Source: a virus. From it: DNA of 64,000 nucleotides. Below are positions 563-49,704 of the stretch, in pieces. The notes under the pieces were generated by a model. It was not told the origin of the DNA, did no database searches, and was given only the letters and a program-made list of their open reading frames with translations. Each line of letters begins with the position of its first letter. Position 1 is the stretch's first letter. Made by a program: the position numbers and the translations under genes. The stretch is taken from UHGV virus genome UHGV-1375844; one strand, given 5' to 3'.

Positions 563-612
563 GACCTGCTTCTGTATATAAATAACTAATTACTTATTAA
601 TATATACGGAAG
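563..612. repeat. ~50 bp palindromic element (copy A): stems ACCTGCTTCTGTATATA / TATATACGGAAGCAGGT around an AT-rich loop containing the TAAGTA-like motif
   Basis: Inverted repeat read directly; near-identical inverted copy at 49651-49704. Confidence 0.6.
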
Positions 613-643
613 CAGGTTATCTAACGGACTCCCAGAACAAGAC

Positions 644-1237
644 TTAAGCAGCCTTTTTAGGTGGTCTTTTCTTCCTGATTACAGTGGAAGGATCATAGCC
701 ACCCAGCTTTTTCATTACCGTCAGCGGTACCTTGCTGATCGTGTGTCCAGCATCCTGACAATGCCCACGAAAGATGACCAGCATACTGCCACCTGGATTG
801 ATATTGACCTCCACCAGCCCAAGCTCAACGTCCGGCTCGATGAACGCTACGCGACCCCCGGAGAGTATGACTGTTTCGTTGGCGCATTCCGCGGCACGCT
901 CATACCATTTCGTATCCAGGGATTGTGGTATCAACATGACTGTCGTTACGCCCCGCGCCTGCTCTCGAATGGCCGCATCGATCCACGGCGTTATTTTTGA
1001 GTAGGGCGGGTTTAGGAACGCCACTGTGCCCGGGTTGCCCCATTCGCACGTTAAAGCATCACGCTCCACGCCGATAAAGTTCGGTAGCAGTGCATTTTCT
1101 TTATTGCAGGCGACGTCGACATCGAACTTAACGCCTATGTATCTTTGAATGGCGACAAATAACCACTGGGGTGTGCGCCAAAGGTCACGAAGAGAGGTAT
1201 CACGCTCTCGCTTTTTGATTTTTTCCGCTGCGACCAT
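644..1237 (-). CDS. DNA N6-adenine methyltransferase (Dam-like, phage type)
   Basis: FLNPPYS motif (N6-adenine MTase motif IV); size and layout typical of phage Dam-family enzymes. Confidence 0.8.
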   Translation of the reverse strand: MVAAEKIKKRERDTSLRDLWRTPQWLFVAIQRYIGVKFDVDVACNKENALLPNFIGVERDALTCEWGNPGTVAFLNPPYSKITPWIDAAIREQARGVTTVMLIPQSLDTKWYERAAECANETVILSGGRVAFIEPDVELGLVEVNINPGGSMLVIFRGHCQDAGHTISKVPLTVMKKLGGYDPSTVIRKKRPPKKAA

Positions 1238-1421
1238 TGCTTATCTCGTTAAGTAACTACTTACCTATTTTTCCATTTAATCCAACGGATAGCAAACAAT
1301 GAAGAACGCGTCAGAATCACGAGCGGGAAGCTCTCTGACGCGTTTTCTCAGTGCTGGGTATGCGATGAGCTTACCCAGCTTCTTAAAGCGCTCTGTGGGC
1401 TTGAGATTCTTTAGGGGAACT

Positions 1422-2264
1422 TCATCCAAAAGAATACTCCGCAATAAATTTCTTAACGATCGGGGAGTCATCATTCAACGTTAAGCAACCGCCTTCCCGG
1501 GTTGCAACTCCTGTCGCCGGAAAAACAGCCATCATTTGCCCAGCCTGGGTTGATGCCGTATTAAGCGGGTAGGGCTTCTCCGGATAGCTCATAAGCGCCA
1601 GCTTAATGCTGTTACTGGTTGCCGTCTTTGTTTCGAGAATGTGCCGCATCGCAATAACCGTGTAGATGCTGATTTCCGGGCCGCCACTAAACCAGTTCAG
1701 CAGATTAAGGATCTTGTCTTTCGCTTTCACCGGAGCCTTATCGAAAGCCTCAGAAAAAACGGCTGACTCCAGGCCGGCTTTGGCATAAAACGCTTCATCC
1801 TTGTCTGCCAGAGTAAACCGCGGTTTTGCAGGTGCGCGTTCGCCTTTCGCTTTTTGTGGTTTGCTCTCTGTAACCTCAGCCTTTGGTTCTGGGTCGGGCG
1901 TTGGTGATGGCGCTGGATCTACGCCTTCAGACTCGCACGGCTGTGTTTCAGCAGTCGATTTTTCATCATCAGCCGGTTCGCTAACCGGGATAGCTTCCGG
2001 CTCAACGACTTTCACGGGTTTATGCTCGACCTCAAGCTCTTCAAAAACTTTGGTCAGATCATTAGCGGCATTGGCTTGGATGACCTCTTCAGCAACGGCT
2101 TCGACTGGCTTTCCGATGTCATCATTCAGCCCAGCCAGCAGATCATCTATTTCATCACTGCCGCTTGCTTTGGCTGCTTGCGCGGTTGGCTCATCAAGTG
2201 ATTGCAGCATTGCAGTCAGCTCGTCGAGGTCATCGTTCTTTACTGTGTTAGTTGCGTTTTTCAT
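1422..2264 (-). CDS. hypothetical protein with acidic low-complexity N-terminal half
   Basis: 280 aa ORF; D/E/P-rich region followed by an ordered C-terminal domain; no catalytic motif recognised. Confidence 0.45.
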   Translation of the reverse strand: MKNATNTVKNDDLDELTAMLQSLDEPTAQAAKASGSDEIDDLLAGLNDDIGKPVEAVAEEVIQANAANDLTKVFEELEVEHKPVKVVEPEAIPVSEPADDEKSTAETQPCESEGVDPAPSPTPDPEPKAEVTESKPQKAKGERAPAKPRFTLADKDEAFYAKAGLESAVFSEAFDKAPVKAKDKILNLLNWFSGGPEISIYTVIAMRHILETKTATSNSIKLALMSYPEKPYPLNTASTQAGQMMAVFPATGVATREGGCLTLNDDSPIVKKFIAEYSFG

Positions 2265-2558
2265 CTGTCACTCCTCACTTGTTTTCAGCACTATCGCTTT
2301 TCGATGAGTGCATTTTGTCAAAACCTATCAGGCGGAAAAGCAACAAATACAGGCAGAAAAATAAACGCAAGGTTACTATGATTTTCAAGAAATCAACTCT
2401 ACCTCAAATTTCATCAAATAAATTCACACATATTAAAAACATTCAACAATGCTAATAATAATTAAACATTTAGGACTAATTAGCTTTTACTTGCCATGCA
2501 AATCCGTCTGTCTGATAATGAGGGTTTACAACTATATATTTATGAATAGGGTATAATA

Positions 2559-47254: not shown

Positions 47255-47404
47255 GTTTAAACCTACTTTTTTCAGGCAATATTTTGATTACTCTCGGTTT
47301 TTAGTTACCATAGAGGCTCATGTGTTTTTCTTTTGTGGTTTTGGCAAAAGAAAACTTAAATCTCTGATGGATTAAGGCGTGGAGAGACTTTCCACGCCTG
47401 TTTT

Positions 47405-48745
47405 TTATAAAACATCCATGATTCTTTCGATAAACCGCATTTGTTCCAGGTTCTGTTTGACACGGATGCTCACCCCGCCCTTCTGGTTACGTGAACCAGC
47501 AAAGTAGAGTCTTGCCTCGCCTTTTGCTTCTTCCTCTTCCGTTTTGTTGATAGTGATGACCAGGTCAGCGATACGCACCTTCTCGATGTTGTCTGCTGCG
47601 TGCATCATGGTCGCCACTTCCGATGCCCCACCTTCCCTGTTTGTTTGGGATGCGGTGATGCCGGCAACGTTGTGCTTGTCGTACAGCGCACGAAGATCGG
47701 TGTAAATGCTTCGTATGTTTGCCCGGTCATCACGGAGGTCGTAGCTCGGCCGCATCAGATCGGCATAATCGACAACCACCATATCCGGGATCATGCCATT
47801 TGCCTTCATGCCACCCAGCATACGGTCAAGATCTGCAGGCGATACGCTTCCGGATGGCCGCTCAACAATCCACAAGCTCCCAACCCCTTTCGTCGCCCCC
47901 AGCTCCGCCAGTTTGCGGTGGACGTCGTCGCGGCGCTCCACCAGCTTGGACATTTCCGTCTCGGACAGACGGGCGTCGAAACGGTCTGACAGAATAGAGG
48001 TGTGTACTTCCAGCGACAGATACAGGACGTTGTAACCGGCAAGCGTGGCGTTGACAGAGAACTCACCCATCGCCGTCGATTTACCAGACTTCGCGAAGCC
48101 CATGAACAGCACCATTTCACGCTTGGCCCAGCCTTTCTGGTAAAGCAGTTTATCGAGCAGGGGGAGACCCGTTGTGATGCTGTTTGGCACGTAATCGTCA
48201 GATGCCTCGTACTCACGCGTCTTGTAACGCTCTGCTGACTCAGAGAAGTAATCGTAGATGCCGGTCGCTTCGTTAGAGCCGATTTGCTGGACTTTGGCCA
48301 TGATTGCCATCGCGCCCTGGAAATCGCCCTTCTCCTTCATCTCAGCCGCTTTGATTAGCGCGTCGTCGAACGCCACGCTTTTGGCGAACGTCGCGACCTG
48401 GTCGACCATGTACGCCGTGTCTGACAGCTTCTCAGCGAGAATCCGCTTAAACGCCTCAACAACATCGGGGAACAGCTCTTCGCGGATCGTCTTATCGCGT
48501 TTGGCGCGTTTGAGCATGTCGAGGATGGCCGACGACGAAGGTGCGCTTTTGTACATTCTGTAATAGCCAGACACCATATTCACCAGCAGGGCATTGGCCG
48601 CGTTGGAGAACTGGTTAGGTGCAACCAAATCGCCTGCACGAGTCAGAAACTCATGGTCGCGACAGAAATAGGCTGCGAGCCGGTTCTGGAAGTCGTCATC
48701 GAACTCTTCTGACAACCCTCGTCCTGTGTGGCAAAGTTCGGTCAT
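47405..48745 (-). CDS. replicative DNA helicase (DnaB-like)
   Basis: Walker A GFAKSGKST and RecA-like helicase motifs in a 446 aa protein. Confidence 0.85.
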   Translation of the reverse strand: MTELCHTGRGLSEEFDDDFQNRLAAYFCRDHEFLTRAGDLVAPNQFSNAANALLVNMVSGYYRMYKSAPSSSAILDMLKRAKRDKTIREELFPDVVEAFKRILAEKLSDTAYMVDQVATFAKSVAFDDALIKAAEMKEKGDFQGAMAIMAKVQQIGSNEATGIYDYFSESAERYKTREYEASDDYVPNSITTGLPLLDKLLYQKGWAKREMVLFMGFAKSGKSTAMGEFSVNATLAGYNVLYLSLEVHTSILSDRFDARLSETEMSKLVERRDDVHRKLAELGATKGVGSLWIVERPSGSVSPADLDRMLGGMKANGMIPDMVVVDYADLMRPSYDLRDDRANIRSIYTDLRALYDKHNVAGITASQTNREGGASEVATMMHAADNIEKVRIADLVITINKTEEEEAKGEARLYFAGSRNQKGGVSIRVKQNLEQMRFIERIMDVL

Positions 48746-48805
48746 GTGCTTTCCTTTAGTTCTTAAACAAATTGTTTTCTAATGCTAAAAAAGCCAGATA
48801 GGGGA

Positions 48806-49531
48806 TCAACAGAAACGCCGCGCTTCTTCCAGCTCTTCCGGAAAGTGGGCGTAGATAACTCGCTCAGGCACAACTTCCATGAGCCAGATGGCAGAAAAAA
48901 TTATGCGTATGCGCTTATCCCGGGTGATGCCACGTAAACGCTCCAGAACCCACTCAAAATAGCTTTCCTGAATCGGGTCGTGCTGCATGTCTCCCATATG
49001 CTTAAAACTCACCAGAGAGTCATCCAGACGGGTTACAGCGCGTTTAGCTAACTTCTCTTCGAATATCTCGATTAGCTCTGGCTGCCAGAGATGTTGTGGG
49101 CGAGGTAATTTGTCCCACAACCGGCGTGCAGCTGCGGAGAGAACGGTGGAGATGAAGTAGTCATAAGAGCAGCAATAACGATCTGCGAACTGCCTGGCTT
49201 TCCAGAGAGAAGTCTTATTGGCTGTGGATAGCTCCTGATATGGCAAACGCTTCAGGCCAGTTGTAAACGGTGCTGTCTCGAAGTGTTCACGTCCATGCGA
49301 CAGCATGATGTAGGAGTACTGCCGCTTGTATGCTTCGGTGAACAGACATGTCGCCATTAGCGGGTGCATATCGCGGTAGTCGAACCACTTGGAGTCATAC
49401 AACTCGGCCTCATCCTTACAGCGCGAAAGACCGATGTTTTCGGCCACCCACTTGTCCATGACAGCGGTGTCCCACTCCTTCATGAAGGCGTACTGGTCGT
49501 TGTCGATAGTGTTGAAGAAAATCTGGCTCAT
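48806..49531 (-). CDS. hypothetical protein (241 aa)
   Basis: ORF upstream of helicase; palindromic motif just upstream at ~49544-49566. Confidence 0.45.
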   Translation of the reverse strand: MSQIFFNTIDNDQYAFMKEWDTAVMDKWVAENIGLSRCKDEAELYDSKWFDYRDMHPLMATCLFTEAYKRQYSYIMLSHGREHFETAPFTTGLKRLPYQELSTANKTSLWKARQFADRYCCSYDYFISTVLSAAARRLWDKLPRPQHLWQPELIEIFEEKLAKRAVTRLDDSLVSFKHMGDMQHDPIQESYFEWVLERLRGITRDKRIRIIFSAIWLMEVVPERVIYAHFPEELEEARRFC

Positions 49532-49650
49532 GTGATCCGCTATGGTAGGTAGTTACTTACTTATCAAAGTGAGCGAATCATAACGACTGGAGACAGCTTT
49601 TGGAAGTGGCAACTGAAGGGAATGTGTCTGGGAAGCTCGTTGTGAAAAGA

Positions 49651-49704
49651 CCTGCTTCCGTATAAATAATAATAAGTAACTTAGTATTTATATACAGAAG
49701 CAGG
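49651..49704. repeat. ~54 bp palindromic element (copy B; inverted relative to copy A at 563-612)
   Basis: CCTGCTTCCGTATA ... TATACAGAAGCAGG stems around an AT-rich loop containing AATAAGTAACTTAGTATT. Confidence 0.6.

What the first reader, a model, noticed from the sequence alone, without database searches (positions are those of the whole stretch)
563..49704. Two inverted copies of a ~55 bp palindromic element embedding the dispersed motif
Elements at 563-612 and 49651-49704 are near reverse complements of each other. Each has 14-17 bp GC-containing stems (CCTGCTTC..GAAGCAGG) around an AT-rich loop that carries the TAAGTA-type motif. This could be a bidirectional terminator-promoter unit or a small mobile repeat; one copy borders the AT-rich membrane-gene module.
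Basis: seen in the sequence. Interest (0 to 1): 0.5.

Follow-up and report, generated by a model that had tools for sequence, protein, structure and literature searches.

The report
Conserved hairpin terminators at phage-plasmid module junctions
The two elements are real copies of a 55-base hairpin-forming palindrome that SSU5/pHCM2-type phage-plasmids keep at three fixed gene-module junctions, where it most likely stops transcription from running into the next module; it is not a mobile repeat.

Summary
The elements lie at 564-617 and 49650-49705. Each is a near-perfect palindrome with arms ACCTGCTTCYGTATATA / TATATACRGAAGCAGGT around an AT-rich centre. In this window the two copies match best as reverse complements.

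The window is an SSU5/pHCM2-like phage-plasmid. The element occurs in about 800 related plasmids and phages, at up to three intergenic sites that are always the same:
- Site 1: after the Dam methylase (window copy 1).
- Site 2: between the parA/cargo operon and the orf241-DnaB-primase module (window copy 2).
- Site 3: in front of the small terminase gene, outside this window.

All three sites sit between genes on the same strand. At sites 1 and 2 a T-run follows the hairpin on the transcribed strand in nearly all relatives. Published RNA-seq of the Cyrano lysogen shows transcript levels falling 9-fold to about 200-fold across site 2.

My best reading, at about 50% confidence, is a one-directional terminator or insulator hairpin at module boundaries.

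Points that do not fit cleanly:
- Window copy 1 and site 3 lack the T-run.
- The arms are conserved mainly as sequence, with little covariation.
- The centre carries a degenerate copy of the dispersed operator-like motif.

A DNA-level protein-binding role therefore remains open. The elements show no sign of mobility. The inverted relation between the two copies is specific to this lineage. Only site 2 borders variable cargo.

The parts
564..617 (.). Element 1 (family site 1): 54-nt palindrome with arms 564-580 and 601-617. It lies between the Dam methylase stop codon (644) and orf84.
   Evidence: Folding gave -29.5 kcal/mol on the + strand and -22.5 on the - strand. Syntenic copies were found downstream of the methylase in 69 of 71 related loci.
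579..596 (.). Degenerate copy of the dispersed motif in the centre of element 1 (TAAATAACTAATTACTTA, 1 mismatch).
   Evidence: Chance estimate.
530..539 (+). Outer inverted-repeat arm GGTCTGGGAT, the partner of 629-638.
   Evidence: in the region of the elements this motif is found only flanking element 1. The TCTGG/CCAGA columns are invariant in 40 of 40 site-1 sequences. These arms pair in the minimum-energy fold of the intergenic RNA.
629..638 (-). Outer inverted-repeat arm GTTCTGGGAG (read on the - strand), starting a few bases after the methylase stop codon.
49650..49705 (.). Element 2 (family site 2): 56-nt palindrome between the stop codon of membrane-protein orf136 (49721) and the orf241-DnaB-primase module.
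   Evidence: Folding gave -23.6 kcal/mol on the - strand. Syntenic copies lie about 120 nt upstream of orf241 in 78 of 80 related loci.
49673..49690 (.). Degenerate copy of the dispersed motif in the centre of element 2 (TAAGTAACTTAGTATTTA, 2 mismatches).
   Evidence: At site 2, 25 of 29 unique relatives show 2 or fewer mismatches.
49644..49649 (-). CUUUUC tract immediately after the 3' arm of element 2 on the transcribed (-) strand.
   Evidence: The tail score is 1.86 in the window. Relatives read GGTCTTTT(T/A).
49627..49635 (-). Downstream outer motif CTTCCCAGA (read on the - strand). The upstream partner is missing in this window because the variable cargo abuts the hairpin.
   Evidence: SSU5 keeps both partners.
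49546..49563 (.). Full copy of the dispersed operator-like motif, 14 nt upstream of the orf241 start codon. With element 2 it gives the intergenic region a terminator-then-regulated-start layout.
644..1237 (-). Dam-type N6-adenine methyltransferase, the gene upstream of element 1 in the direction of transcription.
   Evidence: Pfam PF05869, E = 3e-37.
218..472 (-). orf84 (phrog_5343), the gene downstream of element 1. Its true start is probably at 448.
48806..49531 (-). orf241 (phrog_2500), the first gene of the DnaB-helicase/primase module downstream of element 2.
49721..50131 (-). orf136 membrane protein, the last gene of the parA-cargo operon that ends at element 2.
473..530 (-). Second stem-loop (CGATTCTAA...TTAGAATCG) followed by UUUUU, just before orf84. 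It could supply termination at site 1 in this lineage, where element 1 has no T-run.
   Evidence: Sequence; fold.

Best explanation
The elements are two of three copies of a conserved hairpin that SSU5/pHCM2-type phage-plasmids place at the junctions between large transcription blocks that all run in the same direction.

Proposed mechanism: when the upstream block is transcribed, the 24-26 bp hairpin forms in the RNA. It has a GC-rich base and an AT-rich top. Where a U-tract follows it, RNA polymerase stops there.

This would insulate the next block from genes that are expressed in the lysogen. At site 2 those expressed genes are the parA operon and variable cargo. The protected blocks are the lytic replication genes at site 2, the orf84-RNase H-antirepressor block at site 1, and the terminase and structural genes at site 3.

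What is shown:
- The hairpin exists and has fixed positions after stop codons.
- The T-run is on the transcribed strand in relatives.
- Transcript level collapses across site 2 in one published lysogen.

What is inferred:
- That the hairpin itself causes the stop.
- That sites 1 and 3 work the same way as site 2.
- That the operator-like centre adds repressor binding.
For: - Both window copies lie between genes on the - strand, 26 and 15 nt after a stop codon.
- The same three intergenic sites recur across the family.
- On the transcribed strand the 3' arm is followed by GGCTTTTT or GGCTGTTTTG at site 1 and by GGTCTTTT at site 2.
- Mean tail scores are 3.33 (sense) against 1.36 (antisense) at site 1, and 2.09 against 1.32 at site 2. 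Random 15-mers from the window score 0.76 on average, with a 99th percentile of 3.11.
- In more distant relatives, site 3 also carries the T-run on the sense strand.
- Hairpin stability is -22 to -30 kcal/mol, with z-scores of -6 to -7.
- A few compensatory changes occur in the arms: 6 pairs changed on both sides against 3.7 in shuffles.
- Total length varies from 53 to 59 nt through (TA)n changes. A hairpin tolerates this; a rigidly spaced two-half-site DNA operator would not.
- Published RNA-seq of the Cyrano lysogen (PMC9928086, S1 Table) gives ParA 49.8, CYRAN_29 89.1 and CYRAN_30 54.6, then 6.2 for CYRAN_31. In other conditions the log2 values fall from 10.4 to 2.6. The hairpin lies in exactly that intergenic gap.
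Against: - Window element 1 has no T-run on either strand (tail score 0.55).
- Site 3 in the E. coli, Salmonella and Yersinia lineages has none either (1.78 sense against 1.73 antisense).
- The simple terminator scan calls neither window copy.
- The arms are conserved mostly as sequence. Cells paired are 90.7% against 90.4% in shuffles. That is more than a plain terminator needs.
- Wobble and mismatch asymmetry favours the sense strand at site 2 (36 of 40 variants) but the antisense strand at site 1 (18 of 26 variants). Overall there is no consistent RNA-strand signature.
- The RNA-seq evidence is at gene level, from one relative, and for site 2 only. Sites 1 and 3 are uninformative because both sides are silent in the lysogen.
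- The phage has ordinary short GC-rich terminators elsewhere. Why these three hairpins share one sequence is unexplained.
Confidence: 0.5

Rival explanations
1. The palindrome is a DNA-level site that a phage or host protein recognises as duplex or extruded cruciform. The arms and the outer TCTGG/CCAGA repeats would be protein-binding half-sites around an AT-rich, easily melted centre. Candidate roles are a repressor roadblock, a lytic replication origin or priming signal, or, at site 3, a terminase (pac) recognition region.
For: - The arms are nearly invariant across three sites and several genera, while the spacers around them diverge. Covariation is weak.
- The centre resembles the dispersed operator-like motif beyond chance at sites 2 and 3.
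- The outer inverted repeat has an invariant core.
- Wobble direction shows no overall strand bias.
- Site 2 abuts the helicase/primase module and site 3 abuts the small terminase gene.
- The SSU5 GenBank record is cut inside the site-3 hairpin.
Against: - The T-run is found only on the transcribed strand. A symmetric DNA site does not predict that.
- Arm-to-arm distance varies by up to 6 bp.
- The centre segment is flipped between lineages at the same site, and the motif match is off-axis and rests on one half-site.
- Draft contigs also break at sites 1 and 2. The SSU5 record ends therefore look like assembly breaks at a repeated palindrome.
- Three origins or three pac sites per genome would be unusual.
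Confidence: 0.22
2. The element acts in RNA but not mainly as a terminator. The 24-26 bp duplex, extended in read-through transcripts by pairing of the outer repeats, would be an RNase III-type processing or retroregulation site, a 3'-end stabiliser, or a target of a phage antitermination factor.
For: - The duplex is long enough for RNase III.
- The outer TCTGGGAG/CTCCCAGA arms enclose the hairpin in the minimum-energy fold of the site-1 intergenic RNA (-54.4 kcal/mol, z = -5.5).
- Beyond the core, the outer arms differ between lineages yet stay complementary: GGGAGTT/AACTCCC against GGCGTCT/AGACTCC.
- Copies without a U-tract (window element 1, site 3) are still conserved.
- The RNA drop at site 2 would equally fit processing followed by decay.
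Against: - RNAalifold finds almost no covariation energy for the extended structure (-0.49 kcal/mol).
- The upstream outer arm is lost in the window and in Cyrano at site 2 while the hairpin itself is unchanged.
- No Rfam family matches.
- No antiterminator gene was identified.
Confidence: 0.15
3. The elements are a small mobile or selfish palindromic repeat (MITE/REP-like), or inversion sites for a recombinase, with no role for the phage.
For: - There are multiple near-identical copies per genome.
- Copies within a lineage resemble each other, and the centre flips between lineages, which shows that copies recombine.
- One copy lies at a cargo boundary.
Against: - There are only three sites, always the same, across about 800 plasmids, including Yersinia pMT1.
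- All flanks except the upstream flank of site 2 form a single homology cluster.
- The segment between the copies is collinear, not inverted, in SSU5, Cyrano, PhiR41_1 and CMS-2020a.
- No copies occur outside this plasmid family in a scan of 185,579 species genomes, apart from one probably misbinned MAG.
Confidence: 0.04

Closest known systems
Rho-independent (intrinsic) transcription terminators, including insulating terminators at prophage module boundaries
   Same: A GC-based stem-loop a few bases after a stop codon, between genes on the same strand. In most family members it is followed by a U-tract on the transcribed strand. Transcript level falls across site 2 in a lysogen.
   Different: The duplex is much longer (about 24-26 bp) with an AT-rich upper half. 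One sequence is shared by three sites and kept across genera. Some copies have no U-tract, including window element 1. The centre resembles the phage's dispersed operator-like motif.
Lambda tI/sib retroregulator and T7 intergenic RNase III sites
   Same: Long intergenic hairpins between same-strand genes. The flanking complementary arms could pair only in read-through RNA. As with T7 sites, several related copies occur per genome.
   Different: No evidence of cleavage. The extended pairing shows little covariation, and its upstream arm is dispensable at site 2.
Repressor sites dispersed through a phage-plasmid genome (P1 C1 operators; mycobacteriophage L5 stoperators)
   Same: The window carries a palindromic motif at about 20 places, mostly just upstream of gene starts. 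The hairpin centres contain a degenerate copy. This comparison is made from my own knowledge of P1 and L5.
   Different: The hairpin copies are off-axis and depend on one half-site. They are not next to a start codon. At site 1 of most relatives they fall to 3-4 mismatches.
REP/BIME extragenic palindromes
   Same: Imperfect palindromes in intergenic regions downstream of genes. They occur in either orientation and can stabilise or end transcripts.
   Different: There are only three copies, confined to one plasmid family. No GTAG-type head, no associated RAYT gene, and a much more AT-rich sequence.

Membership tests
Intrinsic (Rho-independent) terminator | Stable GC-containing stem-loop immediately downstream of a gene on the same strand | tested here: met
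   Both copies lie 15-26 nt after a - strand stop codon. Folding energies are -22 to -30 kcal/mol with z-scores of -6 to -7.
Intrinsic (Rho-independent) terminator | U-rich tract directly after the stem on the transcribed strand (element 2 and relatives at sites 1 and 2) | tested here: met
   Element 2 reads CUUUUC. Relatives read GGTCTTTT at site 2 and GGCTTTTT at site 1. Sense tail scores are 2.09 and 3.33 against 1.3-1.4 antisense.
Intrinsic (Rho-independent) terminator | U-rich tract directly after the stem (window element 1; site 3 in the main lineages) | tested here: not met
   The element 1 tail is CTACCAAAACGT, scoring 0.55. Site 3 scores 1.78 sense against 1.73 antisense.
Intrinsic (Rho-independent) terminator | Canonical geometry (short stem, 3-8 nt loop) recognised by a consensus scan | tested here: not met
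   Neither copy was called by scan_promoters_terminators. The hairpin is longer than the consensus and has an internal loop.
Intrinsic (Rho-independent) terminator | Transcripts end at the site | tested here: inconclusive
   Gene-level RNA-seq of the Cyrano lysogen shows a 9-fold to about 200-fold drop across site 2 (PMC9928086 S1 Table). There is no 3'-end mapping. Sites 1 and 3 are silent on both sides.
Bidirectional terminator | T-run after the stem on both strands (an A-run upstream) | tested here: not met
   Antisense tails have no T-run in the window or in relatives.
MITE / small mobile repeat | Copies at variable, non-syntenic positions, with presence/absence polymorphism | tested here: not met
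   Only three syntenic sites were found. All flanks form a single cluster except the upstream flank of site 2.
Site-specific inversion or resolution site | The segment between inverted copies is found in both orientations among relatives | tested here: not met
   Both ends of the interval are collinear with SSU5, Cyrano, PhiR41_1 and CMS-2020a. The relative orientation of the copies is itself not conserved.
Dispersed operator-like motif TARGTAA-N4-TTACYTA | Match to the 18-bp palindrome | tested here: met
   Element 1 has 1 mismatch and element 2 has 2 mismatches. This is beyond composition-matched chance. The match is conserved at sites 2 and 3 and weak at site 1.
Dispersed operator-like motif TARGTAA-N4-TTACYTA | Placement directly upstream of a gene start, as for the other copies | tested here: not met
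   The other copies lie 4-60 nt from a start codon. The hairpin copies lie about 110-140 nt away, and site 2 has a separate full copy at 49546-49563.
Terminase recognition (pac) region | Virion DNA ends or packaging series start at the site | not testable with these tools
   The SSU5 record ends fall inside the site-3 hairpin. However, draft contigs also break at the other sites, and no end-mapping data were found.
REP/BIME elements | High copy number on the host chromosome, with an associated RAYT transposase | tested here: not met
   There are three copies per plasmid. None were found outside SSU5-like replicons in the species-genome scan.
Any curated RNA family (Rfam 15) | Covariance-model match at the gathering score | tested here: not met
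   Only two tRNA hits were found in the window.

The most novel reading that the evidence does not exclude
The three hairpins are specific cis-acting sites read by a phage-encoded factor, not passive terminators. They could be switchable gates between the three transcription blocks. In the lysogen, the hairpin plus repressor binding at the operator-like centre would keep them shut. During lytic growth a dedicated antitermination or processing activity would open them. Alternatively they could be cruciform-type sites used for lytic replication or packaging. On either reading, the shared arm sequence is a recognition code conserved from Yersinia pMT1 to Klebsiella plasmids.
Probability: 0.2. Interest if true: 0.6.

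Novelty: new member of a known kind. Interest (0 to 1): 0.35.

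Why it matters
SSU5/pHCM2/pMT1-type phage-plasmids are common in Salmonella Typhi, Yersinia pestis, Klebsiella and E. coli, and they carry resistance and toxin cargo. Their gene regulation is almost undescribed.

A three-site map of conserved boundary hairpins gives a simple working model of how plasmid-maintenance and cargo genes can be expressed in the lysogen without reading into lytic modules. It also marks site 2 as the fixed landmark next to which cargo is exchanged.

There is a practical consequence too. The repeated palindrome breaks assemblies, and the SSU5 and Cyrano reference records are cut inside one copy, which hides it from similarity searches.

Tried and rejected
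- **Rfam.** The scan of the whole window found only tRNAs.
- **Consensus promoter and terminator scans.** Neither element was called around either copy.
- **Inversion or recombination sites.** Rejected because the intervening segment is collinear in four relatives and the relative orientation of the copies is not conserved.
- **Mobile element.** Rejected because of strict synteny.
- **Integron attC idea.** A literature hit mentioning SSU5 turned out to be irrelevant, and no R'/R'' core sequences are present.
- **LexA box.** The arms contain CTGTATAT, but the CTGT-N8-ACAG spacing is absent (read directly from the sequence).
- **Strand of action from G.U against A.C asymmetry.** The two sites gave opposite answers and about 5 of 10 events overall, so this gives no verdict.
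- **RNAalifold on the extended site-1 region.** The consensus was poor because of indels in the AT-rich part.
- **Covariation on the arms alone.** Marginal result.
- **Flanking proteins.** Pfam and PHROG searches of orf241, orf84, orf136, orf214, orf119, the 89-aa gene upstream of site 3 (called up89 in this report) and the terS-like gene gave no function that would name a binding partner.
- **Literature.** Searches for SSU5 combined with terminator, inverted repeat, pac or PhageTerm found no description of these elements.

Full report
**What the window is.** The first 1.8 kb and the region around 49.7 kb are about 81-82% identical to Salmonella phage SSU5, and 75-81% identical to Escherichia phages Cyrano, PhiR41_1 and CMS-2020a. 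The best match to element 1 is plasmid pSA20094620.2 of Salmonella enterica (94.7%). The window is therefore part of an SSU5/pHCM2-type phage-plasmid of about 105 kb. Almost all its genes are on the - strand, and GC skew is uniformly negative.

**Check of the observation.**
- Element 1 is ACCTGCTTCTGTATATAAATAACTAATTACTTATTAATATATACGGAAGCAGGT at 564-617.
- Element 2 is ACCTGCTTCCGTATAAATAATAATAAGTAACTTAGTATTTATATACAGAAGCAGGT at 49650-49705.
- The 15-mer ACCTGCTTCYGTATA has four exact hits in the window, all of them arms of these elements. None of 100 shuffles reached the observed number of near-matches.
- The longest inverted repeat in the window joins the two elements (43 nt, 86%).
- Each element folds at -22 to -29.5 kcal/mol, with z-scores from -6.1 to -7.3.
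- The centres match the dispersed motif TARGTAANNNNTTACYTA with 1 and 2 mismatches. That motif has 21 hits in the window against 0.34 expected.
- The centre matches are beyond what loops of the same composition give.

The 'loop' is itself mostly self-complementary, so the structure is one long hairpin with an internal loop.

**The elements belong to a three-site family.**
- A 71-bp query found the element in 12 phage records and 799 plasmid records. The hosts are Klebsiella, Escherichia, Enterobacter, Yersinia, Salmonella, Citrobacter and Cronobacter. Nearly all are about 95-125 kb and non-mobilizable.
- Site 2: 78 of 80 loci fetched with orf241 have the hairpin about 120 nt upstream of that gene.
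- Site 1: 69 of 71 loci fetched with the Dam methylase have it just after the stop codon.
- Site 3: loci with the element but neither of those genes all share a third position. It lies between an 89-aa gene (phrog_900, called up89 in this report) and a terS-like gene that precedes the large terminase.
- Yersinia pMT1 keeps only site 3.
- The closest relative of the window has a site-3 copy that BLAST missed. The genome this window comes from therefore very probably has a third copy outside the window.
- SSU5 also has site 3, but its GenBank record is linearised inside that hairpin.
- A scan of one genome per bacterial species found the element only on such replicons: Kluyvera, Buttiauxella, Y. 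pestis and one MAG labelled Bacillota that is probably misbinned.

**Orientation.** Because each copy is a palindrome, its orientation is defined by only a few asymmetric bases and by the centre. In the window the copies are more alike when inverted (0.93 against 0.84). In 22 other genomes the centres are more alike in direct orientation in 14, in inverted orientation in 2, and tied in 6. The centre segment is flipped between lineages at the same site: window against SSU5 at site 1, and Cyrano against the window at site 2. The inverted relation is therefore a feature of this lineage, not a design principle.

**Evidence on function: position and T-runs.** All three sites lie between genes on the same strand. 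On the transcribed strand a T-run follows the hairpin in essentially all relatives at site 1 (GGCTTTTT or GGCTGTTTTG) and at site 2 (GGTCTTTT). No T-run follows on the other strand. More distant relatives also show the T-run at site 3.

**Evidence on function: published RNA-seq.** In the Cyrano lysogen the parA operon genes read 50-89 normalised counts up to CYRAN_30. The next gene, the orf241 homologue CYRAN_31, reads 6.2. In other conditions the log2 values fall from about 10.4 to 2.6 (PMC9928086 S1 Table). The hairpin sits in that 193-bp gap. This is the strongest support for a terminator or insulator role. It fits the biology, because plasmid-maintenance and cargo genes are on in the lysogen while the replication genes downstream must stay off. 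Sites 1 and 3 are silent on both sides in that data set.

**What does not fit a plain terminator.**
- Window element 1 has lost the T-run: GGTCTACCAAAACG, where SSU5 has GGCTTTTTAAGACG.
- Site 3 in the main lineages has no T-run.
- The arms are 92% identical column by column across three sites and several genera, while neighbouring spacers diverge.
- Covariation is marginal. Cells paired are 90.7% against 90.4% in shuffles, and 6 pairs changed on both sides against 3.7 in shuffles (17 of 500 shuffles reached the observed number).
- Wobble asymmetry favours the sense strand at site 2 and the antisense strand at site 1, so it gives no consistent verdict.
- An outer inverted repeat with an invariant TCTGG/CCAGA core flanks the hairpin and pairs around it in the predicted RNA fold. 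At site 2 its upstream arm is lost in the window and in Cyrano, with no change to the hairpin.
- The centre keeps 2 or fewer mismatches to the dispersed motif in most variants at sites 2 and 3, but not at site 1. The match is off the hairpin axis and depends on one TAAGTAA half-site.

These points keep two rivals alive: a DNA-level recognition site, and an RNA processing or antitermination site.

**Variable regions and mobility.** The upstream flank of site 2 falls into 13 unrelated clusters among 74 loci. The five other flanks are each a single cluster. SSU5 carries an extra DUF2971 gene inserted exactly at the hairpin edge. Homology of three E. coli phages to the window ends at element 2. 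The element is therefore a fixed backbone landmark beside which cargo is exchanged. It does not move with the cargo.

**Verdict.** The elements are real and conserved. They are specific to one phage-plasmid family, and I found no description of them in the searchable literature. The most likely function is one-directional transcription termination or insulation at module junctions, at about 50% confidence. Sequence-specific recognition by a protein is a serious alternative. Interest is moderate: the elements are useful for understanding and annotating an important plasmid family, but most likely a known kind of element.

Noticed in passing
window, about 20 sites, e.g. 200-217, 1250-1267, 12137-12154, 39048-39065, 49546-49563, 54839-54856, 55943-55960, 61919-61936: An 18-bp palindrome, TARGTAANNNNTTACYTA, has 21 hits against 0.34 expected. 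Nearly all lie just upstream of - strand gene starts. They are often preceded by TTGA and end in a -10-like TANNNT, which looks like an operator overlapping many promoters.
   Followed up: partly
window 9699-9714, 22341-22356, 34245-34260, 48765-48780, 51827-51842 (- strand): A second dispersed palindrome, AGAAAACAANTTGKTT, has 8 matches against 0.36 expected. It is preceded by a CACATA-like hexamer and lies upstream of parA, the DnaB-like helicase and other genes. The same motif lies just downstream of site 3 in relatives.
   Followed up: partly
L277 9262-9300 plus L276 1-19 (SSU5 NC_018843.1 ends); Cyrano OV696614.1: The SSU5 reference record starts and ends inside the site-3 hairpin, and Cyrano's record is laid out the same way. 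Similarity searches therefore undercount copies. Several IMG/VR draft contigs also end at or near hairpins. This is probably assembly breakage at a repeated palindrome, but a real packaging end is not excluded.
   Followed up: partly
window 473-530 (- strand): A second stem-loop, CGATTCTAA...TTAGAATCG, is followed by UUUUU immediately before orf84. It contains further TCTGG/CCAGA repeats.
   Followed up: no
window 564-617 against L002 3067-3127; window 49650-49705 against L122 3003-3057: The AT-rich centre of the hairpin is inverted between lineages at the same site while the arms keep their asymmetry. (TA)n runs vary in length from 53 to 59 nt overall. This points to recombination or template switching within the palindrome.
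   Followed up: partly
window 18297-18809 and 19693-20420: Arrays of about 21-bp iterons (CCACTATAGAGAG-like), in direct and inverted orientation, flank the repA-like ORF at 18846-19901. This is the plasmid replicon (families D1, D5, D10, D12).
   Followed up: no
window 41608-41814 (- strand): There are two adjacent tRNA hits. One is 130 nt long for a 71-position model, so it may carry an insertion or intron.
   Followed up: no
window 61890-61918 (- strand); L275 2895-2925; L278 19895-19925: A small GC hairpin with the loop AAGGAT (GGGCAAGGATGCCC or GCGCAAGGATGCGC) followed by a T-rich run sits in the leader of the 1399-aa tail gene. A similar one sits just before the terS-like gene in relatives. 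This may be a leader terminator or attenuator. The motif alone is not enriched in the window.
   Followed up: partly
window 55730-55838 and 57722-57830: A 109-nt direct repeat, 77% identical, with copies about 2 kb apart in the tail-gene region (family D6).
   Followed up: no
L348, L349 (JAEWTL010000044.1 and JAEWTL010000041.1): Contigs of a MAG labelled Bacillota carry exact copies of the hairpin. This is most likely a misbinned enterobacterial phage-plasmid.
   Followed up: no
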